Below, piece after piece: positions 11,255 to 64,000 of a DNA stretch of 64,000 nt (its first letter is position 1; the number at the start of each line of letters is the position of its first letter). A program made the position numbers and the translations under genes. The stretch is from a virus. Its lineage: Duplodnaviria; Caudoviricetes. The DNA is taken from IMG/VR virus record IMGVR_UViG_2974533383_000001, positions 3,593 through 67,592 of that record. The stretch is one strand, 5' to 3'. The notes beneath the pieces were generated by a model that was not told the DNA's origin, did not search any database, and saw nothing but the letters and a program-made list of their open reading frames with translations.

Positions 11255-11322
11255 GTAGCTGATTGAGGGGGTCGGGCAACCGACCCCCTTGGATCACCCC
11301 CTCAACAGAAAGGAGGCAGGTC

Positions 11323-12102
11323 ATGGCCGGACCAGCTGGCACCCCGGGAATGGAGACTCCATCCCTCGCTGCGCTCACCCGCCCTACTGTCCTTGACGTC
11401 GTCAACGTCATCGACGGCGCACCTGGCTACGAGCTTTTCCAGGACCACCAGTATGAAACACGCCTGACCGATTACGACCTGACGGACATCCCTGACACGG
11501 GAACCGACAAGGAGTTCGGCAAGCGGGACGATCTTGATCACACCAAGCCCACGCGCTTCGGCGCATACCGGGGCCTGGACGATCAGATCATCCGCTACGG
11601 CGCTGGTGCTGCGGAACTGAAAGAGCTGTTCACTCTGGGCGAGTCCCTGTTCGTGGAGGAGAAGCTGCAGAAGCTGGTTCTCTCCCCTGCGGCGGTGGAC
11701 CTGACCCCGACGCCAGGAACGCCCGTCACCAACCTCAATGCGGCGATCGGTCTGCTGGAACAGTGGATCGCCAGCCGCTACCTCTACCGCCCCACGATTC
11801 TCGGCAACCTGTTGGCTATCAACCTGATCGCTGACACCAAGCCTCCGTTCGACCTGGTCACCACTGCCAAGACCCCCATCGGCATTGCCGCTGGCTTTGG
11901 CTCTGATGGTCCCGGTGCTGCGGTGGCGGGGGCCGGGCAAGCGTGGCTGTACATCGCCGGCCAGGTCAACGTGTGGAGGGGCGCCATCGGCGAACCCACC
12001 ACCGCCCAGGACTTGGCCAAGAACCGCGAGCTGCATCTGATCGAACGGCAGTATGCCGCCTCGGTAGACGGCCCGGTCGCTGCAATTCTCGTCGGATTCT
12101 AA
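11323..12102 (+). CDS. second capsid protein (pentamer-type capsid protein-like)
   Basis: RBS AGAAAGGAGG; 259 aa; LLEQWIA, TPIGIAAGF, WLYIAGQVNVWRG, N...LIERQY patterns resemble pentamer capsid proteins of cluster-B-like actinophages. Confidence 0.6.
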   Translation: MAGPAGTPGMETPSLAALTRPTVLDVVNVIDGAPGYELFQDHQYETRLTDYDLTDIPDTGTDKEFGKRDDLDHTKPTRFGAYRGLDDQIIRYGAGAAELKELFTLGESLFVEEKLQKLVLSPAAVDLTPTPGTPVTNLNAAIGLLEQWIASRYLYRPTILGNLLAINLIADTKPPFDLVTTAKTPIGIAAGFGSDGPGAAVAGAGQAWLYIAGQVNVWRGAIGEPTTAQDLAKNRELHLIERQYAASVDGPVAAILVGF

Positions 12103-12115
12103 GGAGAAGGAAACC

Positions 12116-12547
12116 ATGGCACCTGCAGGATTCAAGCTGCCCGAGGGCAAGGTCCACGTCAAGGGACGCGGCATTGCCCAGGCGAAGGCTCTTATCGAGC
12201 GCGCCGAAGAACTCGGCATCGACGCCTCGGAAGTTGTTACGACTTCCGTTGGCTATCTCGTGCCCGAGGCGCTGGTCGAGCGCACTGAGAAGGCGGAGGA
12301 GGAAACTCCCACCACCAACCAGGATGGCGACCAGGACCCCGACGGCCAGGACCAGAACCCGGGCGATACCCCGGACGAGGACCTGGACGCCTACGACCCG
12401 TCCAAGCACACCATCGCCGAGGTTACCGAATACCTCGAAGGCGCGGACGACGCGGAACGCGAGCGCGTTATCGCAGCGGAGAAGGAATCCGAGAAGCCTC
12501 GCAAGGGCATCCTCGACCTCGCCGAAACCGGAAAGGAATCTGAGTAA
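12116..12547 (+). CDS. acidic hypothetical virion-region protein
   Basis: RBS AAGGAGAAGG; C-terminal YDPSKHTIAEVTEYL..ERERVIAAEK..KPRKGIL motif. Confidence 0.7.
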   Translation: MAPAGFKLPEGKVHVKGRGIAQAKALIERAEELGIDASEVVTTSVGYLVPEALVERTEKAEEETPTTNQDGDQDPDGQDQNPGDTPDEDLDAYDPSKHTIAEVTEYLEGADDAERERVIAAEKESEKPRKGILDLAETGKESE

Positions 12548-12549
12548 TC

Positions 12550-13473
12550 ATGGGTGCTCCCAAGCAGAAGCACGCGGGCCTGTTCCGGTCCAAGACCATG
12601 CGTGTGACGGACGTGGATTTCCAGGGCCGTCCCATCCAGGGCGAGGACTCGGTCATCGTCACCAACGGCCAGATCAGCGTAGCCTTCGCAGGCAACATCG
12701 CTGAGGGCGAGGTCATCGAAGGTATCAACGGCAACGGCGACCGCTGCTGGTTCGAACCTTCCGACCCCTCCTTCTCGGGCTACAACATCGACGCCACGTT
12801 CTGCAACGTGGACTTCGCTCTGTTCAAGAAGCTCACCGGCCACGACGTTGTCCTCAACGACGACGGCACCATCGTTGGTATTGAAGAAGGCAGCACCGTT
12901 GTCCTATCCAACGTCAACTTCGCCATGGAGCTGTGGACCGGCGCCAAGTCCGACACCGCTCCGCGCGATGGAGCACAGGGCGACTGGGGTTACATCCTGA
13001 CCCCGTTCGTCCGCGGCGGCACCATCTCCGACATCACGGTGGAGAACGCTGGCATCACCTTCGGCGTTACCGGCATGACCACCAAGAAGGGCAACAGCTG
13101 GGGCAAGGGCCCCTACCTCGTTGACCTGGTGGCGGGGGTTCCTGCTCCGTTGTTCCAGGCAGTCAAGAAGACCGCGTTCCGCCGCATCACCACGGTGGAG
13201 GTGGCTCCTCCGGAAGCCTACGAGGGTCCGATCCCCTTGATGGACATCACCGACGCGGCCCTCACCGGCCTGACCGCAACCCCCACCGGCAAGTCTGTGG
13301 TGTTCGCACCCACTCCTGCTGGCACGGACCCGGTCTGGTACGACTTCGGCGACGGCGTCTGGGACTACGCGGTCACCGGCGGCATGACCTACGTCTACGA
13401 GGACTCGGGAACCTACACGGTTACCGCGACTCGCGGCAAGACGACCATCACCAAGGACGTCACTGTCGCATAG
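12550..13473 (+). CDS. major tail protein with C-terminal PKD/Ig-like domain
   Basis: 307 aa; RSKTMRVT..D..G.P N-terminus, FAMELWT, WGYILTPFV; C-terminal WYDFGDG...YVYEDSGTYTVT is a PKD signature. Confidence 0.85.
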   Translation: MGAPKQKHAGLFRSKTMRVTDVDFQGRPIQGEDSVIVTNGQISVAFAGNIAEGEVIEGINGNGDRCWFEPSDPSFSGYNIDATFCNVDFALFKKLTGHDVVLNDDGTIVGIEEGSTVVLSNVNFAMELWTGAKSDTAPRDGAQGDWGYILTPFVRGGTISDITVENAGITFGVTGMTTKKGNSWGKGPYLVDLVAGVPAPLFQAVKKTAFRRITTVEVAPPEAYEGPIPLMDITDAALTGLTATPTGKSVVFAPTPAGTDPVWYDFGDGVWDYAVTGGMTYVYEDSGTYTVTATRGKTTITKDVTVA

Positions 13474-13530
13474 CACGAGGAGGGGGTCGGGCAACCGACC
13501 CCCTTTCGCTCCCCAACCAAGGAGACATCC

Positions 13531-13653
13531 ATGGGAACCGAAGAACAGCCTTACGTTGACCCCCACCACCGCGTCCCTGACGACCAGTGGGGCGACGTCG
13601 TGCGCAACGCCCAAGCGTTCCGCGCCGAATCCGACGAGAGCGAGACAGAGTAA
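13531..13653 (+). CDS. 40-aa acidic micro-protein upstream of the endolysin (not in the ORF track)
   Basis: RBS AAGGAGA; MGTEEQPYVDPHHRVPDDQWGDVVRNAQAFRAESDESETE; its TAA overlaps the lysin ATG (TAATG). Confidence 0.65.
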   Translation: MGTEEQPYVDPHHRVPDDQWGDVVRNAQAFRAESDESETE

Positions 13654-14636: not shown

Positions 14637-14647
14637 GGCCATCTAGA

Positions 14648-14686
14648 CCGGGGCGGCGGCTTGCTGGGGAGTAGCCGCCGCCCCTC
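14648..14686 (+). terminator. GC-rich hairpin after the endolysin, possible terminator
   Basis: GGGGCGGCGGCT-loop-AGCCGCCGCCCC inverted repeat; no clear U tract. Confidence 0.45.
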
Positions 14687-14715
14687 CCCATACCCCCACC
14701 ACGAAAGCAGGAATC

Positions 14716-15911: not shown

Positions 15912-15912
15912 C

Positions 15913-16392: not shown

Positions 16393-16482
16393 CGAGCCTG
16401 TCCTTATCGGGGATAAACCCCCGGTAGTCTGATGACAGCCGGTTTACGGCAAACAGGAGACAGACCCTTATAGGAGTTTTTC

Positions 16483-20100: not shown

Positions 20101-21943
20101 CGTCGGCGCTGGCCTGGCCGAGCTGGGGCGCATGATCACCGATGGCTGGAACCGCATCTGGTCCGGCAACATCTTCGGGGATCAGCCGGGCAAGTTCTTC
20201 ACGGACTTCGGAAACAACTTCTCCAAGGGCCTCGACGCCATCGGCACCTTCCTGGGCGAGGCCTGGGAGAAGAGTCCCATCAAGAACTGGTGGGACGAGT
20301 CTGTCGTGCCCTGGTTCGACGACATCAAGAGGAGCGCCGAGGAGCTGTGGAAGGGCTTCACGGACTTCCTGAGCGGCCTGTTCGGCGGTGGTGGCGACGA
20401 GGGCGGCGGCACTGGCGGCGCTGGCTCCATGTCAGTAGGCAAGGCCATCGGCCTGGCCGACCTGGAGGACCCCTCCAAGTGGGAGGAGTTCGGCTCCAAC
20501 GTCCGGCAGTGGGTCACCGACTTCTTCACCGGCATCGGCGACTGGATCACCGAAACCTCCACCACCTTGAAGGAAGGGTGGGACGAGTTCTGGGGCGGCT
20601 TCGGGGACAAGGTATCCGAAATCTGGAACGGCATGGTGGAGTGGATCGTCACCAAGTACACCGAGATTTCCACCGGCATCATCGAGTGGTGGACCGGCGT
20701 ACAGGAGGGGTGGAACGCCTTCTGGGATGGGGTCAACCTCAAGGTCCAGGAAATCTGGACTGGCATCGTCACCTGGGTCACCACCAAGTACACGGAAATC
20801 AGCACTGGAATTACCCAGTGGTTTACCGACGTCAAGACTGGGTGGGACAACTTCTGGAAGTCCGTTTCCGACAAGGTGACTGAAATCTGGAATGGAATGG
20901 TTACGTGGATTGTCACCAAGTACACCGAGATTTCCAACAACATCTCTAGCTTCATCACTACCGTGCGGACCAACTGGGATAACTTCTGGAAGGCCGTCAA
21001 CGACAAGGTTGTTGAAATCTGGAATGGAGTGAAGTCCTGGATTGATACCAAGGTCACCGAAATCCGGACCAATATCGACAACTTCATCAACACCGTGCGC
21101 TCCAACTGGGATAACTTCTGGCGCGGGGTGGGGGACACTGTCTCCCGCATCTGGCAGGGCATGGTGTCTGCCATCTCCGGCTTCGTCGGCGGAATCATCG
21201 GCACCGTCTCCGGCTTTATCGGCAACGTGCGGGGCATCTGGGACGGCGGCTGGAACGGTATCACCACCGCGCTGCAGAACGCATGGAACAACATGGTCAC
21301 CGCCGTGCAGACCGGCGTGAACAACGTGGTCAGCTTTGTCTCCGGGCTGCCCGGTAAGATTCTCGGCTTCATCCAGGGCATCAACCTCTCCGGCGCTGGT
21401 GCGGCCATCATGAACGGCTTCCTTGGCGGCTTGAAGTCGGCATGGGGTGGGGTCACCAACTTCGTCGGTGGCATCGCAGACTGGATCGCCAAGAACAAGG
21501 GCCCGATTGAGTACGACCGCCGCCTCCTGGTCCCCGCTGGTGCTGCCATCATGCAGTCGCTGGTCGATGGTCTGCAGGGCGGCATGGGTGGACTCGAAAA
21601 TCAGGTCAACAACGTCACGGATCAGATCCTCTCCGGCGTCACGCAGGGGCTGGCTCGGTCTGCGATGTATGCGGCGGGGGCGGACGCTGCGCTGGGGCTG
21701 GCCGATGGCCTGTCCTCCAAGGCTGCCGATGTCGAGCGCGTGTTCAAGGGCCTCATTCCGGATGTGCCGGAAATGCGGGTCACCACTGGTTCCGGAGGGG
21801 TCGGGTACCCGACCCTTGGCGGCGGAGAGAGCGTCGGGGCTTCGGTCATCGTCGAGAACATCAACCTCCACTCCAACGCCTCAGACGAGGGAATCCTGGC
21901 CGAAAAGATCGTCGATGAACTCGTCGATGTCACCACTCTGTAG
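17111..21943 (+). CDS. tape measure protein
   Basis: 1610 aa, helical; AEAYINVHGD N-terminus; Trp-rich periodic repeats; follows the chaperone. Confidence 0.95.
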   Translation: MGREVAEAYINVHGDLSPFRRDLEKANEGMEKLAKRSADDFSDAWGKRMAAGIDKQWNSVIDGMYNAEGFDPNRLIKDFNSKDLDDAEAKIKDFILSMRRHGKLSADQYKEMKASLTEAIKATRNQQGAEEKLAKDRQAWNRAHLDMMAEFESQRQQAADKRKKDETSWHRAHLEMMDEFDKQRQASADKRKADEKAWLRANDDFVAKFREVRKAYDESFDGMFKTEQAKRLTDDLKKMVTAIESADWSKFAKGFDTFDEMRDRIHEVNKSMFEQGKISQENISRINRAAEEFIKTEMEKRKAVEDASAATKRAKEEELRLTGEALTASRKAREEAERMDKTFEGMVNKATIRKLENDFRRLTEAVASNDWSSFSKGHKDFNSMHVEINRVIGSMHSLGRMSDDSLGRINIELDMMRSGARGFQGAFQRGTDLIDMLPAKFNLGSIALSLLTRGLENFGKKLAGMSGFNVVGDMLREGSEFMQNIDRHAVSWAKNMTVGAGALSAVVSSVGGISVIGSDLAKILGGLAAFVPAFATGFGIGIGTLIAALKDMKTVLKDLGPAFSKLQDNISSTFWKIAEQPIRNLVNNTMPLLNEKLAVTSENLAGMFTEFARVLDNQETRDSAGRMFDRMNSAIKISQGMIAPLTNAFVTLADFGSLYFERFSTWLVNVSTQFNDFIQKAAADGRLQKWMDDAIQGLKDLWSIASSAVGIWGAISDAAEKAGSKGLHGFAENLAAIEKIMTSERFQAALVTVFQSAGTVMEGFKEGIKKLGPAFESALPTLAGAAFNFKGIIETAFGYLADFISNKGLQDGFLTFTTSIKTALDTLAPSIPILASGLGGLMSFMGTVLENVARIVNEVITKLSPVFDKMMEKLEPLIPVIGDLAVAFIDSLAPILETFVDEILPPLIDLIKDLAPLIADFLKQITPGVVENIKAFGEALKVIVGIIDGVTDALDSLKAGGDLEWLGTTIEALVSGPGSDASKKMGDTIAGWIKSIDVGAGLAELGRMITDGWNRIWSGNIFGDQPGKFFTDFGNNFSKGLDAIGTFLGEAWEKSPIKNWWDESVVPWFDDIKRSAEELWKGFTDFLSGLFGGGGDEGGGTGGAGSMSVGKAIGLADLEDPSKWEEFGSNVRQWVTDFFTGIGDWITETSTTLKEGWDEFWGGFGDKVSEIWNGMVEWIVTKYTEISTGIIEWWTGVQEGWNAFWDGVNLKVQEIWTGIVTWVTTKYTEISTGITQWFTDVKTGWDNFWKSVSDKVTEIWNGMVTWIVTKYTEISNNISSFITTVRTNWDNFWKAVNDKVVEIWNGVKSWIDTKVTEIRTNIDNFINTVRSNWDNFWRGVGDTVSRIWQGMVSAISGFVGGIIGTVSGFIGNVRGIWDGGWNGITTALQNAWNNMVTAVQTGVNNVVSFVSGLPGKILGFIQGINLSGAGAAIMNGFLGGLKSAWGGVTNFVGGIADWIAKNKGPIEYDRRLLVPAGAAIMQSLVDGLQGGMGGLENQVNNVTDQILSGVTQGLARSAMYAAGADAALGLADGLSSKAADVERVFKGLIPDVPEMRVTTGSGGVGYPTLGGGESVGASVIVENINLHSNASDEGILAEKIVDELVDVTTL

Positions 21944-32751: not shown

Positions 32752-32815
32752 GGCTCCCGGGGGGTTTGGGTGCTTCACCACCCTAGCAGGGTCGGGCACC
32801 CGACCCAATAGATGT

Positions 32816-34212: not shown

Positions 34213-34749
34213 TTAGACCTCCTTCGGGGATAGGTCGAACGGTGCCCACATGGTCACCATGTAGTCGGCGAACTTTTGCAGCCAGGCGCGAACGGCGGGC
34301 TCGTCCTCACGGGTCACCTTGATCTGGGTGGTGGCCATGATCCCCTTGCGCGGCATCATCCAGAACAGCTCCAGAACCTCGCCGGGGAGGGTGAAGTTGG
34401 GGTTCTCCTCCAGCTCGTACTTGTAGTCGTCCGGATTGGGGGTCTGCCAGTCCCAGCGGTAGCACCAGTTCATGTCGATGTCCGCGTTGTAGAACGACTC
34501 CCCCTCCGCGAAGTCCTTCCAGGATTCGAAGCGGTGGTGGTAGTCGGCCTCCTTGGCAGGGGAAGCCCAGTAGCTGCCCTCGGGGCCATAGTAGGGGTGG
34601 TCGGATTCGAACAGCGGGACGGGGGTGGGTCGGGCAACCGACCCTGCAGCCTTCACCGCCACCTCGATGTCGCTGTAGGTCAACTCGATCCCAAGCCCGT
34701 CCAGCGCAGTGCGCACGGCCTCAACCTGGGCATTGAAGTTACTGGTCAT
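34213..34749 (-). CDS. hypothetical protein (178 aa)
   Basis: RBS AAGGAAAG; FESDHPYY, WCYRWDW, ELFWMMPRKG aromatic motifs. Confidence 0.75.
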   Translation of the reverse strand: MTSNFNAQVEAVRTALDGLGIELTYSDIEVAVKAAGSVARPTPVPLFESDHPYYGPEGSYWASPAKEADYHHRFESWKDFAEGESFYNADIDMNWCYRWDWQTPNPDDYKYELEENPNFTLPGEVLELFWMMPRKGIMATTQIKVTREDEPAVRAWLQKFADYMVTMWAPFDLSPKEV

Positions 34750-34963
34750 CGTTCTTTCCTTTGCAGTCTTGGGGTTGGTGGGATTGGCGGATGGTCCTGC
34801 CGGCGGTCCATGGATGCTGGATGCATTCGGGGTCAATCTTCGCGGCATCGACCAGCCCGCAGGGGGCCTTGCCGCAAGGGCAGTGGTCCTCAAGGAGTGT
34901 GCCCTTGAAGCTCCGCCCGATGTGCTGGTTCCACTCGACGTTAGTCATCGTCCTGATCCTCAT
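34739..34963 (-). CDS. small Cys/His-rich protein
   Basis: HCPCGKAPCG..C..H..H..C; start uncertain. Confidence 0.6.
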   Translation of the reverse strand: MRIRTMTNVEWNQHIGRSFKGTLLEDHCPCGKAPCGLVDAAKIDPECIQHPWTAGRTIRQSHQPQDCKGKNDDQ

Positions 34964-38471: not shown

Positions 38472-38740
38472 TATGCCTCCTTGGTGGCGGGGTGGGTCGG
38501 GTGCCCGACCGTGATGAACTCTGCGGGCATGCGCATTGCGGATCCCATGAACTTGGCGAAGTCCTCCACCTTCCAGCGCGGGTCCAGCCCCACCGAGCCA
38601 CCCTTGATGAAGTAGACGCGGACCCGGGTGATGTGGCCCTCGGTCGCGGGATAGGGCGCCTTCTCCGTCACCGTGGAGGCGGACTGGATTTGGTCAATCT
38701 GGAACAGTTGGCCGTCGAAGACCATGAAGCTAGGACTCAT
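38471..38740 (-). CDS. hypothetical protein (89 aa)
   Basis: start MSPSFMVFDG; 3' end contains a repeat copy. Confidence 0.65.
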   Translation of the reverse strand: MSPSFMVFDGQLFQIDQIQSASTVTEKAPYPATEGHITRVRVYFIKGGSVGLDPRWKVEDFAKFMGSAMRMPAEFITVGHPTHPATKEA

Positions 38741-38987
38741 TGCTGCCTTTCGGATAGATGCCCTTGCGCTGGAGTTCCCGGCGCAGGTTCTTGTAGCCCC
38801 GGTGATCGGAGCCGGTGAAGTGCGTGCCGCTGATAGCACCGTTGGTGCCGTAGAGGATGATGCCGGACTTGGTGAACTTGTAGTCCACCCCGGCTCTGTA
38901 GGCGTCCATGAGGAGGTCCCGCAGCTCAGGCTTCTTGCCGCAGCGCCTCCTCAGCATTCTGGAGAAGTCGGTGGATTTACCACTCAC
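38730..38987 (-). CDS. HicA-like (dsRBD-fold) toxin homolog
   Basis: FTKSGIILYG..G...H.TGSDHRGYKNLRRELQRKG matches the actinophage HicA-like TxSDxR..N...L.R.G pattern. Confidence 0.55.
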   Translation of the reverse strand: MSGKSTDFSRMLRRRCGKKPELRDLLMDAYRAGVDYKFTKSGIILYGTNGAISGTHFTGSDHRGYKNLRRELQRKGIYPKGSNES

Positions 38988-40763: not shown

Positions 40764-40798
40764 AGCGCGGGGCACCGACAATTTCAGTGCCCCGCGCT
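40764..40798. terminator. 12-bp hairpin abutting a repeat copy
   Basis: AGCGCGGGGCAC / GTGCCCCGCGCT. Confidence 0.45.
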
Positions 40799-40815
40799 GG
40801 GTCGGGTGCCCGACC

Positions 40816-41622
40816 CTAGTTGTCGGTCTCGCCGCTCAGCGGGCCGACCGGCTGGCCGTCCACTGTCGCCTGCCCGGGGAACGGGTCAGCTACGTGCTGC
40901 TGATAGCCCTGGCCGGCGGGGTCCTGCTCGGCATCCTTGGCTGCCCGGGCGGACAGTGCCGAGTTCAACAGACCCTGGTTGACCGCGTGCTGCTCGTCGG
41001 TCACGCCGGGGTGGCGCTCGACGCCATGGGCTGCCTGGGGGTGCTGGCCCTCCACCGCCGCCTGCATCTTCTTCACGGACTCGGCGTCGAAGCGAGCGCC
41101 GTTGCGCCACTCCTGTCCGGGGGCGACAATCCAGCGGACGACGTCATTGGTGCTGCCGCTGTCGTAGAGCGAGAGGCCGAACTGCGTGCCCAGCTGGATC
41201 GCGCAGCGCTTCAAGGCATCGGAAGCGGAGGACTTGAGGGCCATGTCCATGGCCTCGCCAAGCACCGGCTGGGCGTTGAACCCCACCGCCACCTCGTCAT
41301 AGAACGCGGCGAGCTGCGGGATGATCAGCCGGGAGGTGGTGGAGAACGCGATGGACCAGTTCATCTTGTCCTTGTTCGAGGACTGCGGAACCTGCTCCCG
41401 GTAGACCAGCTCCTGATGGATGATCTGCAGGGACCATCCGCCGAAGCCGAAGACCCGGTTCAGCATGGCCTTCACGTCCCATGCTTCGAGATAGCTCATG
41501 CCCTTCTTGGCCGCCACGCGGCTCTGCTGCAGGTTGGCCATGAGCGTCTTGAGCTGGCTCTCGGTGAGGGGGCGGACCTCGTCATAATTGAAATGCGGTG
41601 GGGGCATGGGGGTGAATGTCAT
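40816..41622 (-). CDS. Rad52/Rad22-family single-strand annealing protein
   Basis: GMSYLEAWDVKAMLNRVFGFGGWS and ALKSSASDALKRCAIQLG.QFGLSLY motifs. Confidence 0.92.
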   Translation of the reverse strand: MTFTPMPPPHFNYDEVRPLTESQLKTLMANLQQSRVAAKKGMSYLEAWDVKAMLNRVFGFGGWSLQIIHQELVYREQVPQSSNKDKMNWSIAFSTTSRLIIPQLAAFYDEVAVGFNAQPVLGEAMDMALKSSASDALKRCAIQLGTQFGLSLYDSGSTNDVVRWIVAPGQEWRNGARFDAESVKKMQAAVEGQHPQAAHGVERHPGVTDEQHAVNQGLLNSALSARAAKDAEQDPAGQGYQQHVADPFPGQATVDGQPVGPLSGETDN

Positions 41623-44427: not shown

Positions 44428-44470
44428 GGTGTGTCTCGCTTTCTGTGGTGGAGGGTCGGGTGCCCGACCC

Positions 44471-47544: not shown

Positions 47545-47606
47545 GTCTAGCTCCTTCGTGTGTGATGTGGTGGGTCGGTTGCCCGACCCGGGTTAGTACT
47601 TGCCGA

Positions 47607-48530: not shown

Positions 48531-48644
48531 GGGATGGGTGCTCCTTAGTGTGGGTGGTGGACGGGGTGTGCAGTATCTAGTTTACACCTAAAGTGAACCG
48601 ATAATGTACGCTTATTGTCCACGATCTGGGTCGGTTACCCGACC

Positions 48645-49136
48645 CTAGAGGCTAATCGTCGGGTTATCGAGGCGCGCTTCGATGGTCCTAACGCGCTCGG
48701 TAAGCTGTTCGACGCGCTCCCAGACCGGCCGCGGCTCCGGCTTGACAGACTGAACCCCGTTTGAATCCACCATCGGGACCAGCTTGCCGGTGATTTTGAC
48801 CTCGCCGTCACTGGTGATGTAGGCGTTGCTGACCTCCACCCCATGCTCGGTCAACAGCGCCGCGATCCTCATGGCAGGGCTGGAGGATTCGACGGCAGGC
48901 TCGTCTCCGCTGGTGTCCCTTCCGTGCTCGGGGTCGGTGCAGCGGATGCCGACCTGGTCGAAGATTTCCCGGAACATGGAACCCTCGACGTAGCGGGATT
49001 CGGCCAGCGCAATGGCGGCGTCAGCCACCTCGCGCTCCCGCTCGATAAGCGCAGAGCTAATAGTTGCCTCGGCATAACCGCCGAGCTTATATCCAGTCAG
49101 GGTGCGTCCGACCAGCGACCGTATTGATTCAGGCAT
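48645..49136 (-). CDS. hypothetical protein (163 aa)
   Basis: RBS AGAAAGAGAG; C-terminal coiled coil. Confidence 0.7.
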   Translation of the reverse strand: MPESIRSLVGRTLTGYKLGGYAEATISSALIEREREVADAAIALAESRYVEGSMFREIFDQVGIRCTDPEHGRDTSGDEPAVESSSPAMRIAALLTEHGVEVSNAYITSDGEVKITGKLVPMVDSNGVQSVKPEPRPVWERVEQLTERVRTIEARLDNPTISL

Positions 49137-51317: not shown

Positions 51318-51376
51318 GGTGGGTTTCTCTCTCGGTGGGTGTGGAGGAGGGTCGGTTGCCCGACCCTCCCGGGGTA

Positions 51377-51792: not shown

Positions 51793-52015
51793 GGGTATGT
51801 CCTTCCTGGGGTCGGTTGCCCGACCCTTGATCGGTTGCCGGATCATCAAACCACTGGAGGCACACCGAGCAGAATGACTGCGGGGTGGGGGTGGACTCCA
51901 GCTGGACGGGGAAGCCGTGCTCGGCCACCATGTCCGGGTCGATCCGGCAGAGTGTTGCTGCGTCAGGCGGACAGTAGTAATTACCGTTCGCCCATTGGTA
52001 AGGGTTGTCTGCCAC
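51737..52015 (-). CDS. small Cys-containing protein
   Basis: RBS AAGGAG; YYCP..LC...FCSVC; first gene after the 52051-52079 promoter. Confidence 0.65.
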   Translation of the reverse strand: MADNPYQWANGNYYCPPDAATLCRIDPDMVAEHGFPVQLESTPTPQSFCSVCLQWFDDPATDQGSGNRPQEGHTHEHNTSAGGDADTGGNSG

Positions 52016-52050: not shown

Positions 52051-52079
52051 AGTCTATCACAAAGTACAGACAATGTCAA
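52051..52079 (-). promoter_or_regulatory. SigA-type promoter
   Basis: TTGACA-17 nt-TAGACT with extended -10 TG. Confidence 0.85.
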
Positions 52080-53404: not shown

Positions 53405-53460
53405 GGGTATGTCCTTTCAGGAGGAGGGGGTCGGTCACCCGACCCCCTCGGGTGGGTGGA

Positions 53461-54746: not shown

Positions 54747-54791
54747 GGTGTGTCCTATCTGTGGTGGGGGTCGGGTGCCCGACCCATCGGT

Positions 54792-56373: not shown

Positions 56374-56917
56374 GGGGTCCTCCAACTTCGGGTGAGTAGT
56401 GCAGGTCGTGGAGCAGGGCCCTGACCAGGTCCAAGCGGTCAAGGTGGTGGAGGTGGAACGTCTCGCCGTTGAGAACCAGCACGGCATGGCCGCGCTCTGC
56501 ATTCTGGACGATCAGCTCGACGTCGCTTTCCATCCTGTCGTGGAACAGCCAGAGGTTGTCGTCCTTCTCGTTCAGGATGGGCGGGACGTGGGTCGGTTGC
56601 CCGACCCTCTCGGCGATACGCTTGGACGCTGGGCGGTTCAGGTCGATGCAGAGCGGGCAAGTTACTTCCTCGATCAGGACCGAGAGCTTGCCGTTCTTCG
56701 TGCCACAGCGGGCAACCTGCATTCCCCAATCGAGATGTGTTGTCCCATCCGCCAGCACGTCGGCCAGGACCATGGGCATGCCGCGCTGGGCTTTCAGGAA
56801 CGCCTCGGACTTGCGGCAGATGAAGCAGGTCACTCGCGCCGGGTCGGTGGACTGGTGGCCCCGGTCCCCGCAGACTGCGTAGACCTCGGCTGGGCTGGTG
56901 ATGAAGTGGACAGGCAT
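56366..56917 (-). CDS. protein with two H..CG..VTCxxC Zn-finger-like modules
   Basis: RBS AAGGAGG; VCG..VTCFIC and RCG..VTCPLC. Confidence 0.7.
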   Translation of the reverse strand: MPVHFITSPAEVYAVCGDRGHQSTDPARVTCFICRKSEAFLKAQRGMPMVLADVLADGTTHLDWGMQVARCGTKNGKLSVLIEEVTCPLCIDLNRPASKRIAERVGQPTHVPPILNEKDDNLWLFHDRMESDVELIVQNAERGHAVLVLNGETFHLHHLDRLDLVRALLHDLHYSPEVGGPHD

Positions 56918-57651: not shown

Positions 57652-58074
57652 TCAGTAGGTGGGTCGGTTGCCCGACCCCTTCTCAAACAGCTCGTCCCAG
57701 TTGGCGTGCTGCTTCTTGCGGGCCTTGGTGCGCTCGATGTCCCGGCGTACTCGCAGCTTGGCGAGTACATCCTGGGCGGCAGCCTCGAAGTTCTCGGGGT
57801 TGCGGTTCATCATGCGCAGCGCCTCGCTCAGCTCCAGCCCCTTGTCCTCGATGCGCTTGGCTTTGGCCACCTCATGGTGGATGCGGTACATGAGCAGCAG
57901 GGAAGGCAGCCCGATGGGCCAGCCAATCCCGGCGAACATCCCCATGCATGCGGAGAATCCCAGGGTGGGACTTTCCTTGTCGAGGTAGAAGTAGTGGAAG
58001 CGGGCGAAGAAGAAGGCGGTGGTGAACGCAACACCGGGGTAGATCATCCAGAACAGCTGCCAGAAGTCCATCAC
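57652..58074 (-). CDS. membrane protein
   Basis: two N-terminal TM helices (WPIGLP motif). Confidence 0.7.
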   Translation of the reverse strand: MMDFWQLFWMIYPGVAFTTAFFFARFHYFYLDKESPTLGFSACMGMFAGIGWPIGLPSLLLMYRIHHEVAKAKRIEDKGLELSEALRMMNRNPENFEAAAQDVLAKLRVRRDIERTKARKKQHANWDELFEKGSGNRPTY

Positions 58075-58477: not shown

Positions 58478-58531
58478 GGCGTTGCCTTTCGGAGGTGGAG
58501 GGTCGGTTACCCGACCCCTCGGTGGGTGGTG

Positions 58532-59903: not shown

Positions 59904-59913
59904 GACGTTCCTT

Positions 59914-60240
59914 TCAGTGGGTCGGTTGCCCGACCCCTAGGTCCTTCTCGAATTGGTTGACGACGGCGGACAGCGCCTTCTTGGTTGCGATCAGGAGGTT
60001 GAATGCCTCCGTGAGGGTGATCTTGTAGCTGAACTCCGGCGCAAACTCAGGAAGATGGGTGCGCTGCCGTCCGGAGTCAGTGTCCCGCTCCACGTAGAGG
60101 TAGTGCGGCTGCCCGTTGGAGCGGCTGCCGGACTGGAAGTGGAGGGTGAACCCCTCCTGCATCAGGCCGAGGTGGTGAGCGAGGCTGTTGATGACCTCAA
60201 CCAGCGCATGCACGTCCTGCTTGGATACCCGGCGGCTCAT
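59914..60240 (-). CDS. hypothetical protein (108 aa)
   Basis: ATGA-coupled start; 3' end contains a repeat copy. Confidence 0.7.
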   Translation of the reverse strand: MSRRVSKQDVHALVEVINSLAHHLGLMQEGFTLHFQSGSRSNGQPHYLYVERDTDSGRQRTHLPEFAPEFSYKITLTEAFNLLIATKKALSAVVNQFEKDLGVGQPTH

Positions 60241-60398: not shown

Positions 60399-60459
60399 GG
60401 GGTGTGTCCTTTGGTGGGAAGGAGGGGGAGGGTCGGTTGCCCGACCCTCCCGGGGGTGG

Positions 60460-60894: not shown

Positions 60895-61153
60895 TATTGC
60901 CGTGGCGCATGGCCTCGTCTACCTTGGCCTGCGTCTCCTCGTGGGTGGCGGTGGGGCGCTCGCCGACCACCAGCTGCTGGCCGTGGCCGGTGCCGAGGGT
61001 GCCGGTGCCACGCTCCACAAAGTGAGCGCCACACATGTTGGCCCACGGTCCGTAGATGGTTTTGGCGTCGTACTCGGCGGGCTTGGATACCCCGTCGTCC
61101 TGCTTGCAGAAGTCGCAGTCGGGGAGTGATGCGACATAGGCGATGTTAGCCAT
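60839..61153 (-). CDS. conserved phage Zn-binding protein (104 aa)
   Basis: CDFC..AEYDAKT..GPWANMC..HF..LGTG.GQ. Confidence 0.8.
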   Translation of the reverse strand: MANIAYVASLPDCDFCKQDDGVSKPAEYDAKTIYGPWANMCGAHFVERGTGTLGTGHGQQLVVGERPTATHEETQAKVDEAMRHGNIDDVMEAIGDGDPADYFG

Positions 61154-61244
61154 GGTGTGCTCTCTTTCTGGGTGTGGGGGGTCGGTTACCCGACCCCTCG
61201 GTGGTGTTCTTTGCGGGGTAATTCCGTACAGGGGTATTTGAGGG

Positions 61245-61448
61245 TCAGGAAGTGAGCTTGTCGCGCTCTTCATCGGAGCGTTGACGTGCTTCCTTGACGT
61301 AGTGCAGCGCCGACTCAGTCTTGCCAGCATCGAGAGCATCGACGGCATCGGTGAGAGCTTCGGAGATATAGGCGAAAGCTGCCAGTGGGTGGTGGTTGGC
61401 AGCTTCGGCAGCGACCTTGGCGGGTGACTTACCGGGGGTGAGTGGCAT
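61245..61448 (-). CDS. hypothetical protein (67 aa)
   Basis: first gene after the 61547-61575 promoter; preceded by a repeat copy. Confidence 0.6.
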   Translation of the reverse strand: MPLTPGKSPAKVAAEAANHHPLAAFAYISEALTDAVDALDAGKTESALHYVKEARQRSDEERDKLTS

Positions 61449-61546
61449 GGTGGAATCCGTTCGTTCGGAGCGGGGTCGGTTACCCGACCCCCTCGGTTGG
61501 GGTGTTGGTCCGGTAGGTTCTGGGCACTACCGGACCAACAACACAA

Positions 61547-61575
61547 ACTCTACCACAAGGTACAGATTGTGTCAA
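61547..61575 (-). promoter_or_regulatory. SigA-type promoter
   Basis: TTGACA-17 nt-TAGAGT with extended -10 TG. Confidence 0.85.
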
Positions 61576-61596
61576 GTTTCAAAGTTCAGTGAAGGT

Positions 61597-62010
61597 TCAG
61601 ATGCATTGTTCGGTGAACAGGTACCACACCCCGTTGGTTCCGGGCAGTGCCACCTCTCCCTCTCCCTCAGTGCGGGGGGCGGTGACGTGGTTGTTCCCCA
61701 CGACGTCGATCCGTGAGCCTTGGCTTGGCTTGCATGAGGTCCGGAGTTTGGACCACCCATTGTTGGAATCCCAGGCATCCCAGGCCAGCGCTCGATCCGA
61801 TTCCGTGAGGTTCCCGCAAGCGCGGTTCCCGTGCAGCTGGCAGTCGAAGCCGGGTTCATCTTCCATGGGCTCCTGCGCCGCTATGGAGACGGGAATCTGG
61901 GTCGGTTGCCCGACCCCTTGAACGGTGGGGGTGGAGAGCGCGCCGATGGTGAGGCCGGCGGATACGATGACCAGCGCAGCAGCGGAGGCAGTGAGGGCGT
62001 TGAGTTTCAT
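61597..62010 (-). CDS. secreted or membrane-anchored protein
   Basis: N-terminal signal/TM segment; EDEPGFDCQLHGNRACG motif seen in actinophage membrane proteins. Confidence 0.75.
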   Translation of the reverse strand: MKLNALTASAAALVIVSAGLTIGALSTPTVQGVGQPTQIPVSIAAQEPMEDEPGFDCQLHGNRACGNLTESDRALAWDAWDSNNGWSKLRTSCKPSQGSRIDVVGNNHVTAPRTEGEGEVALPGTNGVWYLFTEQCI

Positions 62011-62113
62011 GGGTGTGTCCTTACGTGGGGTGTGTGGGTAATCGAGTGGGGGAGGGTCGGTTACCCGACCCCTAAGAATGAGCGTGGGAGCTGGGCATAC
62101 GTCCCCCTGGGAA

Positions 62114-62497
62114 TCACAGCTCCCCCACGTGGGCGCCGGGGATGGAGGCTTCCACTATCTGGTGAGCACCGGCGGCAGGCCGGAAGGTTTCACCCATCCT
62201 GCGCTCAAATTCGTCCACGCACTGGCCGGAGGCGTTTTCCAGTGAGACGTAAAAGTCGGGGGCCGACGCCCTAGCGATGACAAACCACCCAAAGTGGGCC
62301 AGCGCTCGATGGTTCTGGGCGTGGGGGTACTGACGTACCCGAGCTTTCCCATCCTGCACCACCACTAGTCGCCAGTATCCCGGGATCAAGTCAGTGGTGA
62401 GGGCGACCGACGCCCGGTAGGGGGCTAACCGCTGGTCGGTGAAGGTGGAACCGCGGACTATGCGGTGAGGGGAGCGACGTTCCATGAGCGCATCCAT
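62114..62497 (-). CDS. hypothetical protein
   Basis: 127 aa; preceded by two repeat copies. Confidence 0.55.
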   Translation of the reverse strand: MDALMERRSPHRIVRGSTFTDQRLAPYRASVALTTDLIPGYWRLVVVQDGKARVRQYPHAQNHRALAHFGWFVIARASAPDFYVSLENASGQCVDEFERRMGETFRPAAGAHQIVEASIPGAHVGEL

Positions 62498-62669
62498 TCA
62501 GTGTGCGGGGTGGGGGTCGGTTACCCGACCCTATGGGCGGTGAGTGGGGGTCGGTTACCCGACCCATGAGTGCCTGGCCGGCGACCCACGTCCCCCTGGG
62601 TAATTCCCTGGGCCGAGCCATGACCAGCGCTCGATACCCGTCACGGGATAGGGGGGAGTGGGGGTAGTG

Positions 62670-62795
62670 CTAGGCGTCTACTGAAAAAGTGAACCGTGAC
62701 CCGTAGGGCAGTGAGTAGAGCCAGTCACTGAGACGGGACGGGATACGGGCAATGGTCCGGCGACCAATGGTGAAGTAGGACTTGCGCGGGTACAT
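62670..62795 (-). CDS. 41-aa micro-protein (not in the ORF track)
   Basis: repeat copy, C/A-rich spacer and RBS AGATAGG upstream, as for other early genes; MYPRKSYFTIGRRTIARIPSRLSDWLYSLPYGSRFTFSVDA. Confidence 0.55.
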   Translation of the reverse strand: MYPRKSYFTIGRRTIARIPSRLSDWLYSLPYGSRFTFSVDA

Positions 62796-62890
62796 GGTGA
62801 GCGCCTATCTGTGGTGGGTGGGGGTGGGTCGGTTACCCGACCCTGTGAGCAGGGGAAGCCCCGGACCAGCGCCCGAGACTTCCCCATCCC

Positions 62891-62977
62891 ACAGGGGAGA
62901 GAGAGAGAGAGACATAGAGAGGGATAGGGAGAGGGGGAGGGGGAGAGGGAGACCCCCCACTGAGGGGAGGTCTCCCT
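62891..62977. repeat. purine/pyrimidine-skewed tract with GA microsatellite, G-runs and a hairpin
   Basis: (GA)n at about 62896-62912; five G>=3 runs at 62921-62949; stem AGGGAGACC / GGTCTCCCT. Confidence 0.8.
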
Positions 62978-62988
62978 ACTGTGAGTTC

Positions 62989-63750
62989 CTAGGCGATAAG
63001 TTCCTCCAGTTCGGCGGCGATGGTGGCGGCCGCCCCGTTGAATGTGTTGACGTCGGACTCGGTGATGATTCCCCCACCCTTGACGTAGATATCCAAGGCG
63101 GACTTTGCCCGGGCCATGAAAGCGAGGATATCGGCGAACGTCATAGCGTCATCGTCGGCGGGGGTGGGGTCGGTTACCCGACCCTCAGATTCCTCAGTGT
63201 CGGCCGATTCCTCAGTGTCCTTGGCGTCCTTGGCCGCTTTACTGGCCGCTTTCCGTGCCTTGGCCTGTTCTTTGTTGTACGCCTCGAAAGCGTCATTGAC
63301 TACGGTCCGGTCATCGTCGGCGGGTGGGGTGGTCCGTTCCTCCATGCCAGCTTTGGCCAGTGCCACTCCTGCCTGCAGGTAGGGGCGGAGCGTGTTCTTT
63401 TTGGTGGCGACCTTTTTGTTTTCTGCCGCGTTGCCGTAGTCCGCGCTGTAGAGGATCTTTGTGGCGTCAGCCAAGTTGGCTTCACCCTTGAACGGGTGGA
63501 CCATGGCGGCGGCGTAGGCCACACGAGAGAGGATGACGCGGGTGGATTCAAAGGCCAGCTTGGCCGCCTTGAAAGCGTCATCGGCGGACGTGTGCTCGAT
63601 GGTGCCAGCGGCCCAACGTGCCCGGAGGTCGCGGATTACGTTGGCTTCATCGGTGGCCAGCGCAGCCTTATCGGCGGCAGTGAGAGCGCGGCCCTTGACT
63701 TTGGGCGTAGCGGTGGCAGGAGTGGCGGGGGTAGCGGTGGCTGTTGCCAT
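62989..63750 (-). CDS. Ala/Lys-rich hypothetical protein, first gene of the early arm (253 aa)
   Basis: RBS AAAAGGA; MATATATPATPATATPK...; contains a repeat copy in frame. Confidence 0.75.
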   Translation of the reverse strand: MATATATPATPATATPKVKGRALTAADKAALATDEANVIRDLRARWAAGTIEHTSADDAFKAAKLAFESTRVILSRVAYAAAMVHPFKGEANLADATKILYSADYGNAAENKKVATKKNTLRPYLQAGVALAKAGMEERTTPPADDDRTVVNDAFEAYNKEQAKARKAASKAAKDAKDTEESADTEESEGRVTDPTPADDDAMTFADILAFMARAKSALDIYVKGGGIITESDVNTFNGAAATIAAELEELIA

Positions 63751-63811
63751 GGGAATCACGGTTCCTTTTCGTCGGCGTCCCGTTCGGCGTATCCGTTCGG
63801 CGACAAACACA

Positions 63812-63840
63812 AATCTTCCACGTCCAGATTCAAAAGTCAA
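63812..63840 (-). promoter_or_regulatory. SigA-like promoter (non-canonical -10)
   Basis: TTGACT-17 nt-AAGATT with TG extension; downstream TTGTGTT also follows the 61547 promoter. Confidence 0.55.
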
Positions 63841-64000
63841 ATTGAGTACAGATTCACCCCGTATCCCGTGACGTGGCGCGGTTTATTGAGTGTCCGGACG
63901 ATTCCATGAGGGAGCCCGATTCCCGCGTTTTTGGGCAGGGTCGGGTGACCGACCCCCGTACCCAGTGACAACGGCCGGCATGGCCCGGTTGCATAGCGGT

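What the first reader, a model, noticed from the sequence alone, without database searches (positions are those of the whole stretch)
11269..63955. Genome-wide 18-bp inverted-repeat element (GGGTCGG-N4-CCGACCC) placed just upstream of genes
Seen in sequence: 28 copies with nearly invariant 7-bp arms (one has a single mismatch). 18 copies lie 15-43 nt upstream of a start codon and are followed by a C/A-rich unstructured spacer and the RBS, so many small genes look like motif-RBS-ORF cassettes. Only 3 copies lie in the structural arm and 25 lie from 32.8 kb rightward. Established knowledge: actinophages carry analogous repeated sites, such as cluster A stoperators, cluster K start-associated sequences and, from my recollection, a 7-bp inverted repeat in cluster O mycobacteriophages with a similar TCGG..CCGA core. 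I do not recognise this motif as described. Inference: it is the cis-element of a phage-wide regulatory or cassette system.
Basis: partly seen in the sequence, partly recalled or inferred. Interest (0 to 1): 0.85.

Follow-up and report, generated by a model that had tools for sequence, protein, structure and literature searches.

The report
Repeated start-associated palindrome in phage Tank
Arthrobacter phage Tank carries about 28 exact copies of an 18-base palindrome just upstream of many of its early genes; similar repeats are already published for two other actinophage groups, their function is still unknown, and here the element can be compared across relatives that use different palindromes.

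Summary
GGGTCGG-N4-CCGACCC occurs 27 times exactly and once with one mismatch in the window. The whole 67.6-kb genome, phage Tank of cluster AP, has 28 exact copies; shuffles expect 0.01. It is not a host repeat: 401 sampled genomes of the order had at most 2 copies each.

The arms are identical in Wilde, Rizwana, SilentRX, AWGoat and BruhMoment, although their proteins are only 40-70% identical. The spacer drifts but stays A/C-rich on the sense strand. In the leftward arm, the site plus a 15-43-nt C/A-rich leader with a ribosome-binding site makes up nearly every 40-69-nt gene junction.

More distant relatives use other palindromes: CTGCCGG-N4, TGCCGG-ACGT, ATCAACC-N2, ATCTACC-N2 and GATTTCCC-N2. 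This kind of element is published for cluster O (17 bp) and cluster EG (18 bp, 14-22 bp upstream of starts), with function unknown. I found no description for cluster AP.

Best reading (0.4): a recognition site on double-stranded DNA for a phage-encoded dimeric protein that co-regulates the early arm. Main rival (0.3): the transcribed hairpin is a translational or RNA operator.

One lead is the small-terminase-like helix-turn-helix protein gp12. Its recognition helix switches between AP and the Beagle group, but the test fails within EG.

Verdict: new member of a known kind.

The parts
11269..11286 (+). Copy, loop GCAA. Intergenic: 14 nt after the major capsid gene stop and 36 nt before the next ATG.
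13484..13501 (+). Copy, loop GCAA. Lies 10 nt after the major tail protein gene stop and 29 nt before the next ATG. Conserved in Rizwana and SilentRX.
21798..21815 (+). Copy, loop GTAC, inside the tape-measure gene 128 nt before its stop. It encodes GVGYPT. The same relative position holds in Rizwana (128 nt) and SilentRX (122 nt).
32789..32806 (.). Copy at the convergence of the rightward and leftward arms, 9 nt beyond the stop of the last leftward gene. No downstream start.
34627..34644 (.). Copy inside a leftward gene. Its loop is in antisense orientation (TTGC on the sense strand). One of two polarity exceptions.
38494..38511 (-). The single one-mismatch copy (outermost pair C·C), sense loop GCAC, 22 nt upstream of a GTG start. 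The same mismatch is present in Wilde and Rizwana.
40799..40816 (-). Copy, sense loop GCAC, overlapping the stop codon of the recombinase gene and 65 nt before the next start. Followed by a second 12-bp-stem hairpin (40764-40798).
44453..44470 (-). Copy, sense loop GCAC, abutting the primase/helicase gene stop, 25 nt before the ATG.
47572..47589 (-). Copy, sense loop GCAA, 17 nt after the SSB gene stop and 27 nt before the ATG.
48628..48645 (-). Copy, sense loop GTAA, overlapping the upstream gene's stop and 97 nt before the next start.
51349..51366 (-). Copy, sense loop GCAA, 10 nt after a stop and 31 nt before the ATG.
51809..51826 (-). Copy, sense loop GCAA, inside an annotated gene (Wilde gp81 homologue) but 16 nt upstream of an ATG preceded by AGGA.
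53428..53445 (-). Copy, sense loop GTGA, 15 nt after a stop and 23 nt before the ATG. The flanks extend the stem by 4 bp.
54768..54785 (-). Copy, sense loop GCAC, 6 nt after a stop and 21 nt before the ATG.
56590..56607 (-). Copy, sense loop GCAA, inside a gene (Wilde gp91 homologue). Conserved in Rizwana.
57661..57678 (-). Copy, sense loop GCAA, within the 3' end of the upstream gene and 19 nt before the ATG.
58500..58517 (-). Copy, sense loop GTAA, 22 nt before the ATG.
59919..59936 (-). Copy, sense loop GCAA, abutting the upstream TAG and 15 nt before the ATG.
60430..60447 (-). Copy, sense loop GCAA, 12 nt after a stop and 31 nt before the ATG. The flanks extend the stem by 4 bp.
61179..61196 (-). 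Copy, sense loop GTAA, in a 91-nt gap: 48 nt after the stop and 25 nt before the ATG.
61473..61490 (-). Copy, sense loop GTAA, in a 148-nt gap, 24 nt before the ATG and about 50 nt downstream of a sigma-70-like promoter.
61899..61916 (-). Copy, sense loop GCAA, inside the gene for a 137-aa exported protein, in the linker after its signal/TM segment.
62054..62071 (-). Copy, sense loop GTAA, 42 nt after a stop and 43 nt before the ATG.
62514..62531 (-). Copy, sense loop GTAA, 28 nt before the annotated ATG. First of a tandem pair.
62548..62565 (-). Copy, sense loop GTAA, 34 nt upstream of the previous copy. The pair is conserved in Wilde and Rizwana.
62826..62843 (-). Copy, sense loop GTAA, about 30 nt before an ATG.
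63167..63184 (-). Copy, sense loop GTAA, inside the first leftward early gene. It encodes GRVTDP.
63938..63955 (+). Copy in the right direct terminal repeat, identical to genome position 527-544 in the left repeat. The loop is GTGA on the plus strand.
1497..2027 (+). gp12, a 176-aa helix-turn-helix protein with a small-terminase-like fold. Candidate reader of the palindrome; a lead only.
61547..61575 (-). Sigma-70-like promoter (TTGACA-17-TAGAGT with TG) upstream of copy 61473.

Best explanation
The 18-bp element is a lineage-specific recognition site for a phage-encoded, sequence-specific protein. That protein most likely binds the double-stranded palindrome as a symmetric dimer.

The sites are built into the leaders of almost all independently translated genes of the leftward early/middle arm. 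The arrangement is stop codon, 0-17 nt, palindrome, 15-43-nt C/A-rich leader with a ribosome-binding site, then the start codon.

I propose that occupancy of these roughly 28 sites co-regulates that arm by blocking or slowing transcription through it, as a dispersed operator or roadblock set would. A late-expressed protein could in this way shut the early arm off.

Shown: the copies, their exactness, their placement, their conservation across cluster AP, their replacement by other palindromes in relatives, and their rarity in the host-order genomes sampled.

Inferred: that a protein reads them, that it reads DNA rather than RNA, and what binding does.
For: 1) The arms are exact and all-or-none within a genome. 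They are identical in six cluster AP genomes whose proteins are 40-70% identical. About 22 of 28 positions are kept in Rizwana despite 65-82% flank identity. This implies sequence-specific reading, not mere structure.

2) The spacer is free while the arms and total length are fixed. Sense loops are GYAA in Tank, GACA/GGAA in SilentRX and ACCA in BruhMoment. In BruhMoment even the innermost pair is free (GGGGTCG-N6-CGACCCC). An invariant outer half-site with an ignored centre is typical of dimeric DNA binders.

3) Relatives use palindromes of 16-20 bp with 0-6 bp centres. These include a perfect 16-bp palindrome in Ranunculus and 8-2-8 forms in cluster EG.

4) Predicted RNA hairpin stability is not conserved across classes: -13.8 kcal/mol in AP, -6.5 in EG and -7.4 in O.

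5) Specificity is phage-encoded. SilentRX and Beagle share host strain B-2979 but differ in motif. Three EG variants share one Microbacterium host.

6) Many copies lie deep inside genes or in the terminal repeat, where a translational role makes no sense.

7) Lead: the recognition helix of gp12 is SS[PA]YRAR in all AP phages and RD[AG]KTAR in the Beagle group, at equal overall divergence (Tank-BruhMoment 53%, Tank-Ranunculus 53%).

8) The authors of the cluster O paper reached the same tentative reading of dimeric regulatory proteins (PMC4351075).
Against: The sites are polar with respect to transcription, which a symmetric dimer site does not predict. GNRA-type loops are in sense orientation in 20 copies against 2 (p about 1e-4) in the window, with 22 vs 3 in Wilde and 25 vs 2 in Rizwana. 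One-mismatch sub-families in relatives are polar too. The loop bias does match the A/C-rich leader composition (A/(A+T) = 0.74), so it may be a by-product.

In long gaps the site sits by the downstream start in 4-5 of 7 cases.

No reader is identified. gp12 looks like a small terminase. Its helix does not track the motif within cluster EG: Squash and OneinaGillian share a motif but have different helices. Gordonia phage Clown has gp12 but no repeat. Corndog has the repeat but no gp12.

Only one site is near a sigma-70-like promoter. These phages are lytic, with no known repressor.
Confidence: 0.4

Rival explanations
1. RNA operator. The transcribed palindrome folds into a hairpin in the leader, 15-43 nt upstream of the start codon and inside the 30S footprint. 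A phage-encoded RNA-binding protein or nuclease recognises it and represses, activates or processes about 20 early mRNAs together. This would be a RegA-like or ThrRS-operator-like translational regulon, or Csy4-like punctuation.
For: Start association holds in every motif class: 13-30 nt in EG, the Beagle group and Ranunculus, and 15-43 nt here. The site plus leader makes up 7 of 8 and 9 of 10 of the 40-69-nt junctions, and 0 of 45 junctions shorter than 15 nt. Strand polarity of loops is strong, with G-Y-R-A on the sense strand in Tank, Wilde and Rizwana. In SilentRX and AWGoat, a polar sub-family keeps pairing through G·U on the sense strand. Flanks extend the stem by 3-4 bp with different sequences in 5 copies. 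Cluster AP phages share a HicA-like small protein that is absent from the Beagle group.
Against: The loop, usually the main RNA recognition feature, is not conserved among phages with identical arms. GNRA is not kept outside the Tank subgroup. The Beagle and Ranunculus polar sub-family gives C·A on the sense strand, so the wobble test is contradictory. Fifteen of 32 SilentRX copies are deep inside genes. Some copies lie 65-97 nt from the next start or have no downstream gene. EG and O hairpins would be weak. No RNA-binding reader is identified, and the HicA-like protein has no Pfam or PDB sequence match here.
Confidence: 0.3
2. Repeat-driven cassette boundaries, or a selfish palindrome. The identical 18-mers persist because they are copied or converted between sites. 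They also serve as short homology for exchanging gene cassettes among co-infecting relatives. Any effect on expression is secondary.
For: Homology-block ends between Tank and Rizwana lie within 20 nt of a site 8 times out of 46, against about 2 expected (p about 0.001). One SilentRX intragenic copy coincides with an exact 6-codon gap relative to Tank. Intragenic copies sit in Pro/Thr/Gly linkers, mostly in one tolerated frame. Whole sets of sites switch together between close relatives, for example ATCAACC, ATCTACC and GATTTCCC within Squashvirus. The cluster O paper reports indels flanked by repeats. The phage encodes a recombinase and an exonuclease.
Against: The same arms are kept across all cluster AP diversity, including at orthologous positions. 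This needs selection on the sequence rather than drift of a master copy. No transposase or homing enzyme is linked to the sites. Polarity and start association are not explained. Eighteen base pairs is short for efficient homologous recombination (established knowledge of phage recombinases).
Confidence: 0.13
3. Structure-only RNA element. The GC-rich hairpin acts without a specific reader. It could be an intercistronic 3'-exonuclease barrier, a 5' stabiliser, a partial factor-independent terminator or a translational insulator.
For: The predicted hairpin is stable at -13.8 kcal/mol. In the left arm, the two intergenic copies lie directly after the major capsid and major tail genes, a classic place for stabilisers or attenuators. 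One copy ends the leftward arm (32789) and one is followed by a second strong hairpin (40764-40798).
Against: No T-run follows any copy, and the terminator scan finds none at the sites. Structure alone does not explain exact sequence identity of about 30 copies across divergent phages, or the lack of compensatory variants within a genome. EG and O versions are weak hairpins.
Confidence: 0.08
4. Packaging signal. The palindrome is the recognition site of the small terminase (gp12). The dispersed copies, densest towards the right terminal repeat, help the terminase find or process the genome end.
For: gp12 is small-terminase-like by fold and synteny. Its helix switches between AP and the Beagle group. 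A copy of the phage's own palindrome lies in the terminal repeat of Tank, Rizwana, SilentRX, BruhMoment, Beagle, Pointis, Ranunculus, OneinaGillian, Marcie and Fizzles. Site frequency per gene junction rises towards the right end.
Against: Squash and Hyperion have no copy in their terminal repeats. Dispersed terminase sites would risk wrong cuts (inference). Start association is unexplained. gp12 does not track the motif within EG. The terminal-repeat copy is expected anyway from the high local site density.
Confidence: 0.07

Closest known systems
18-bp inverted repeats of cluster EG Microbacterium phages (GATCAACC-NN-GGTTGATC; Jacobs-Sera et al. 2020, PMC7302621)
   Same: They are 18 bp long with exact arms and lie in short intergenic regions of the leftward right arm, 14-22 bp upstream of start codons. 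They are conserved where the flanks diverge, and their function is unknown. The phages share Tank's architecture: terminal repeats, a MuF-protease fusion, and structural-gene and gp12 homologues.
   Different: The sequence differs and the layout is 8-2-8 rather than 7-4-7. There are 8-14 copies rather than 28. The predicted hairpin is much weaker (-6.5 vs -13.8 kcal/mol). Centre polarity is weak or absent in Squash and Hyperion.
17-bp repeat of cluster O mycobacteriophages (TGTTCGG-N3-CCGAACA; Cresawn et al. 2015, PMC4351075)
   Same: Arms of 7 bp are invariant in 34 copies, mostly in the leftward right arm, with many copies just upstream of starts and some inside genes. The repeat is absent from host genomes. 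It shares the inner TCGG...CCGA core. The authors suggested dimeric-protein binding, and the function is unknown.
   Different: The spacer is 3 bp. Orientation bias of the spacer is only slight (about 23 vs 9 by my count) against 20 vs 2 here. Gene content is almost unrelated: 2 weak protein matches and no gp12 homologue.
Start-associated sequences (SAS/ESAS) of cluster K mycobacteriophages and cluster EF Microbacterium phages
   Same: They are repeated motifs tied to translation starts of many genes, with unknown function (PMC7302621; cluster K details are from my own knowledge).
   Different: The SAS is asymmetric and overlaps the ribosome-binding site a few bases from the start. The Tank element is a palindrome 15-43 nt upstream that does not include the ribosome-binding site.
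Stoperators of cluster A mycobacteriophages (L5 gp71 sites)
   Same: They are about 24-36 dispersed sites in short intergenic regions, oriented with transcription. In L5 they act as elongation roadblocks (my own knowledge).
   Different: Stoperators are 13-14-bp asymmetric sites bound by the immunity repressor of temperate phages. Cluster AP phages are lytic with no repressor identified, and this site is a palindrome.
Intercistronic RNA signals of coliphages (T7 RNase III sites; lambda boxB/N)
   Same: They are hairpins between early genes that are read on the transcript. boxB has a GNRA-like loop (my own knowledge).
   Different: The stem here is too short for RNase III. There are 28 copies rather than 2-10. 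The loop is not conserved across cluster AP. No N-like or RNase partner was found.

Membership tests
Start-associated short inverted repeats of actinobacteriophages (cluster O / cluster EG type) | A 17-18-bp unit with two invariant 7-8-bp inverted arms and a short variable centre | tested here: met
   Layout is 7-4-7; 27 copies are exact and 1 has one mismatch.
Start-associated short inverted repeats of actinobacteriophages (cluster O / cluster EG type) | About 8 or more copies per genome, concentrated in the leftward-transcribed right arm | tested here: met
   Twenty-five of 28 copies lie right of 32.8 kb, and the genes there are on the minus strand.
Start-associated short inverted repeats of actinobacteriophages (cluster O / cluster EG type) | Position in short intergenic regions a few tens of bases upstream of start codons | tested here: met
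   Nineteen copies lie 15-43 nt upstream of a start. Seven of 8 and 9 of 10 of the 40-69-nt junctions carry a site.
Start-associated short inverted repeats of actinobacteriophages (cluster O / cluster EG type) | Conserved among cluster members despite divergence of the flanks | tested here: met
   Wilde has 29 copies, Rizwana 28, SilentRX 32, AWGoat 31, and BruhMoment 18 (30-32 with the shifted core).
Start-associated short inverted repeats of actinobacteriophages (cluster O / cluster EG type) | Not a repeat of the host chromosome | tested here: met
   The maximum is 2 copies per genome in 401 genomes of the order, and hits elsewhere are scattered singletons.
Intrinsic (factor-independent) terminators | A GC-rich hairpin followed by a run of U | tested here: not met
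   The hairpin is present but every copy is followed by C/A-rich sequence. The scan places no terminator at any site.
Host REP/BIME-like repeats | Abundant in the bacterial chromosome | tested here: not met
Cluster A stoperators | An asymmetric 13-14-bp site bound by an immunity repressor in a temperate phage | tested here: not met
   The site is a palindrome, and cluster AP phages are lytic without an integrase or repressor. The resemblance in function is not excluded.
Cluster K SAS | A motif overlapping the ribosome-binding site 3-8 bp from the start | tested here: not met
   The element ends 15-43 nt before the start and the ribosome-binding site lies downstream of it.
PeSL-type promoter plus stem-loop cassettes of T4-type phages | A sigma-70 early promoter directly joined to the stem-loop | tested here: not met
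   Only 2 sigma-70-like promoters were found in 46-64 kb, and one lies about 50 nt upstream of a site.
GNRA-tetraloop RNA hairpins | A G-N-R-A loop conserved in the functional (sense) orientation | tested here: inconclusive
   Twenty of 28 copies in the window are GNRA in the sense orientation. SilentRX has mostly GACA/GGAA and BruhMoment ACCA with the same arms.
N4-type hairpin promoters | A phage-encoded (virion) RNA polymerase that reads DNA hairpins | tested here: inconclusive
   There is no PF00940 match in the genome, although the control rang nowhere. The 2,075-aa virion protein has only carbohydrate-binding and tail domains.

The most novel reading that the evidence does not exclude
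On this reading a packaging protein made late doubles as a genome-wide roadblock. It would shut off and clear transcription of the early arm before or during DNA packaging, and its recognition helix and the site set would co-evolve between phage lineages.
Probability: 0.12. Interest if true: 0.8.

Novelty: new member of a known kind. Interest (0 to 1): 0.5.

Why it matters
Dispersed exact palindromes just upstream of early genes have been reported in two actinophage clusters for about ten years without a function.

This case adds the largest and most strongly polar set, at 28-32 copies. It also links cluster AP, the Beagle-like Arthrobacter phages and cluster EG as one group of similarly built phages.

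At least six different palindromes now sit in the same genomic role, some on the same host strain. Such natural specificity swaps make the open question directly testable by binding assays, helix swaps, and compensatory versus disruptive site mutants.

It would also improve start-site annotation in these phages.

Tried and rejected
Candidate readers examined:
- The 137-aa early protein (61597-62010) is shared with Corndog and all relatives. It has a signal/TM segment and a conserved Cys pair, so it is exported rather than nucleic-acid binding.
- The 74-aa Cys-rich ORF (34739-34963) matches Corndog gp51 but is absent from SilentRX and Beagle.
- The ParB-like protein and the RepA-like HTH_36 protein are absent from EG phages. 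HTH_36 has only 5 class-switch positions.
- gp13 looks ribbon-helix-helix-like, but its putative DNA-reading strand varies within cluster AP.
- The HicA-like protein has no Pfam or PDB sequence support and no link to the sites.
- The first early gene product has no informative match.
- The giant tail protein is not an RNA polymerase, and no T7-type polymerase was found.

Other tests:
- The G·U versus A·C test on one-mismatch copies gave contradictory families.
- The motif words found no phage paper.
- A promoter reading for host RNA polymerase was rejected. The shortest leaders (15 nt) would put the site over the -10 region of a GC-rich palindrome, and no -10-like element is present.

Full report
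**What the window is.** It is bases 3593-67592 of a 67,592-bp virus record with direct terminal repeats. It is 98.8% identical to Arthrobacter phage Wilde, so it is phage Tank of cluster AP (Klyczek et al. 2017, PMC5513430). Genes up to about 32.7 kb run rightward and are structural and late. The roughly 65 small genes beyond that point run leftward. The cluster AP paper and the SilentRX and AWGoat announcements do not mention the repeat.

**The observation.**
- GGGTCGG-N4-CCGACCC occurs 27 times exactly and once with one mismatch. Shuffles give 0.01.
- The half-site alone is at chance frequency and there are no two-mismatch copies, so the unit is the whole palindrome and copies are all-or-none.
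- No other 7-4-7 hairpin is repeated in the genome.
- It is not a host repeat. A scan of bacterial genomes gave scattered singletons. In 401 genomes of the order the maximum was 2 per genome, like a reversed control. The phage has one copy per 2.4 kb.

**Anatomy.**
- In transcript orientation the usual layout is: stop codon, 0-17 nt, palindrome, 15-43 nt of C/A-rich leader ending in a GAAAGGA/AAGGAG-type ribosome-binding site, then the start codon. Leader composition is C 0.42, A 0.30, G 0.17, T 0.10.
- In the right arm, 7 of 8 (Wilde) and 9 of 10 (Rizwana) of the 40-69-nt junctions carry a site. None of 45 junctions shorter than 15 nt does. The site plus its leader therefore effectively is the intergenic gap wherever genes are not translationally coupled.
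- Site frequency per junction rises towards the right end.
- Exceptions are informative. About 7 copies lie inside genes. Two sit on a stop codon 65 and 97 nt from the next start. One ends the leftward arm and one lies in the terminal repeat.
- No T-run follows any copy. Only one copy has a sigma-70-like promoter upstream.

**Polarity.** The spacer follows the direction of transcription. In the window, 20 copies have a G-N-R-A loop on the sense strand against 2 in the opposite orientation (p about 1e-4). Wilde gives 22 vs 3 and Rizwana 25 vs 2, against an intergenic background A/(A+T) of 0.57. However, the leader itself has A/(A+T) = 0.74. Other cluster AP phages with the same arms have other sense loops: GACA/GGAA in SilentRX (A 45, T 11) and ACCA in BruhMoment. 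The conserved property is therefore an A/C-rich sense-strand centre, not a GNRA loop as such.

**Conservation and turnover.**
- The arms are identical in Wilde (29 copies), Rizwana (28), SilentRX (32), AWGoat (31) and BruhMoment (18; 30-32 with the core read as GGGGTCG-N6-CGACCCC). Protein identities among these phages are only 40-70%.
- About 22 of 28 positions are shared with Rizwana.
- The tape-measure copy sits 122-128 nt before the gene's stop in Tank, Rizwana and SilentRX, although that protein is only 37% identical between Tank and SilentRX.
- More distant relatives with the same genome plan lack this motif and carry their own:

| Phages | Palindrome |
|---|---|
| Beagle, Pointis | (A)CTGCCGG-N4-CCGGCAG(T) |
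| Ranunculus | TGCCGG-ACGT-CCGGCA |
| OneinaGillian, Marcie, Squash, Hyperion | ATCAACC-N2-GGTTGAT |
| Fizzles | ATCTACC-N2-GGTAGAT |
| Phinky | GATTTCCC-N2-GGGAAATC |

- All of these are start-associated, 13-30 nt upstream.
- Phages on one host strain differ in motif, so specificity is phage-encoded.

**What is already known.** Cluster O mycobacteriophages have 34 copies of TGTTCGG-N3-CCGAACA, which the authors tentatively read as sites for dimeric proteins (PMC4351075). Cluster EG Microbacterium phages have 8-10 copies of an 18-bp inverted repeat 14-22 bp upstream of start codons at the right genome end, explicitly compared with cluster O (PMC7302621). The Tank element meets every defining feature of this class and fails the tests for terminators, host repeats, stoperators, SAS and PeSL. 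It is a new member of a known kind whose function is unknown.

**How it most likely works.** Exact arms kept over deep divergence call for a sequence-specific reader. Several facts fit a dimeric DNA-binding protein better than an RNA-binding one:
- The arms and the total length are fixed while the centre is ignored.
- Relatives use palindromes with 0-6-bp centres.
- Predicted hairpin stability ranges from -13.8 to -6.5 kcal/mol across classes.
- Many copies lie deep inside genes (15 of 32 in SilentRX).

I therefore favour a dispersed operator or roadblock set on DNA (0.4).

The main rival is an RNA operator in the leader (0.3). Start association, polarity, and a sense-strand G·U sub-family in SilentRX and AWGoat support it. 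A C·A sub-family in the Beagle group points the other way.

Lesser rivals are recombination or selfish repeats (0.13), structure-only RNA (0.08) and packaging sites (0.07).

**A candidate reader.**
- Among conserved nucleic-acid-binding proteins, only gp12 (1497-2027) is shared by AP, the Beagle group and EG.
- Its model (pLDDT 76) is a three-helix HTH plus a helical hairpin. The only solved structures spanning both parts are small terminases (G20c Z 6.0 over 92 residues, P74-26 Z 5.1, Sf6 Z 4.8; modest scores).
- Homologues are gene 1 next to the large terminase in other phages, and the 'RNase E' label in RefSeq is probably wrong.
- Its recognition helix is invariant in cluster AP (SS[PA]YRAR) and switched in the Beagle group (RD[AG]KTAR) at equal overall divergence.
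- Within EG, however, the same motif goes with different helices. Clown has gp12 without repeats, and Corndog has repeats without gp12.
- gp12 is therefore a lead, not a finding.

**Limits.** No expression data exist for these phages in the library I could search.

Noticed in passing
window 40764-40798 (minus strand): A second strong hairpin (12-bp stem AGCGCGGGGCAC/GTGCCCCGCGCT, 11-nt loop) lies directly downstream, in the sense direction, of copy 40799 after the recombinase gene. The two form a tandem hairpin pair with no T-run.
   Followed up: no
window 61547-61575 and 52051-52079 (minus strand): Two strong sigma-70-like promoters with 10 of 12 matches and a TG extension (TTGACA-17-TAGAGT and TTGACA-17-TAGACT). 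They are the only ones found in 46-64 kb, and both face the leftward genes.
   Followed up: partly
window 1497-2027 (+): gp12 is labelled 'RNase E' in RefSeq copies of homologues and in phrog_645. By fold, synteny and SEA-PHAGES calls it looks like a small terminase with an N-terminal HTH.
   Followed up: yes
window 61597-62010 (minus strand): A 137-aa early protein has a signal/TM segment and a conserved EDDPxWDC...GNRxC motif. The family has about 75 representative clusters. Many members have GVGTPTP in the linker, which is the peptide encoded by the palindrome in one frame.
   Followed up: partly
window 2027-2410 (+): gp13 looks like a ribbon-helix-helix DNA-binding protein (strand-helix-helix pattern, weak HicB match). 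It is conserved in AP, the Beagle group and OneinaGillian.
   Followed up: partly
SilentRX (L240/L241), AWGoat, Beagle, Pointis, Ranunculus: These phages carry polar one-mismatch sub-families. GGGTCGG-N4-CCGATCC on the sense strand occurs 7 times in SilentRX and 11 in AWGoat. CGCCGG...CCGGCA on the sense strand occurs 9-16 times in the Beagle group. Total site counts there are about 25-45 per genome.
   Followed up: partly
Fizzles (L274-L277), Phinky (L291-L294): Two Squashvirus phages carry variants (GATCTACC-CG-GGTAGATC, 13 copies; GATTTCCC-NN-GGGAAATC, 4 copies) of the published cluster EG consensus GATCAACC-NN-GGTTGATC. Whole site sets have switched together between close relatives.
   Followed up: partly
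window about 62099-62116 and about 62588-62610: A second short repeat, ACGTCCCCCTGGG(T)AAT, lies in two far-right intergenic regions next to palindrome copies. It may be part of early promoters or another regulatory site.
   Followed up: no
window 38730-38987 (minus strand): An 85-aa protein is annotated as HicA-like toxin in Rizwana, SilentRX and AWGoat homologues. It is present in cluster AP and not detected in the Beagle group. It has no Pfam or PDB sequence match here, and no adjacent antitoxin was examined.
   Followed up: partly
window 63188-63219: A 14-bp direct repeat GATTCCTCAGTGTC occurs twice, 18 bp apart, inside the first leftward early gene just after copy 63167.
   Followed up: no
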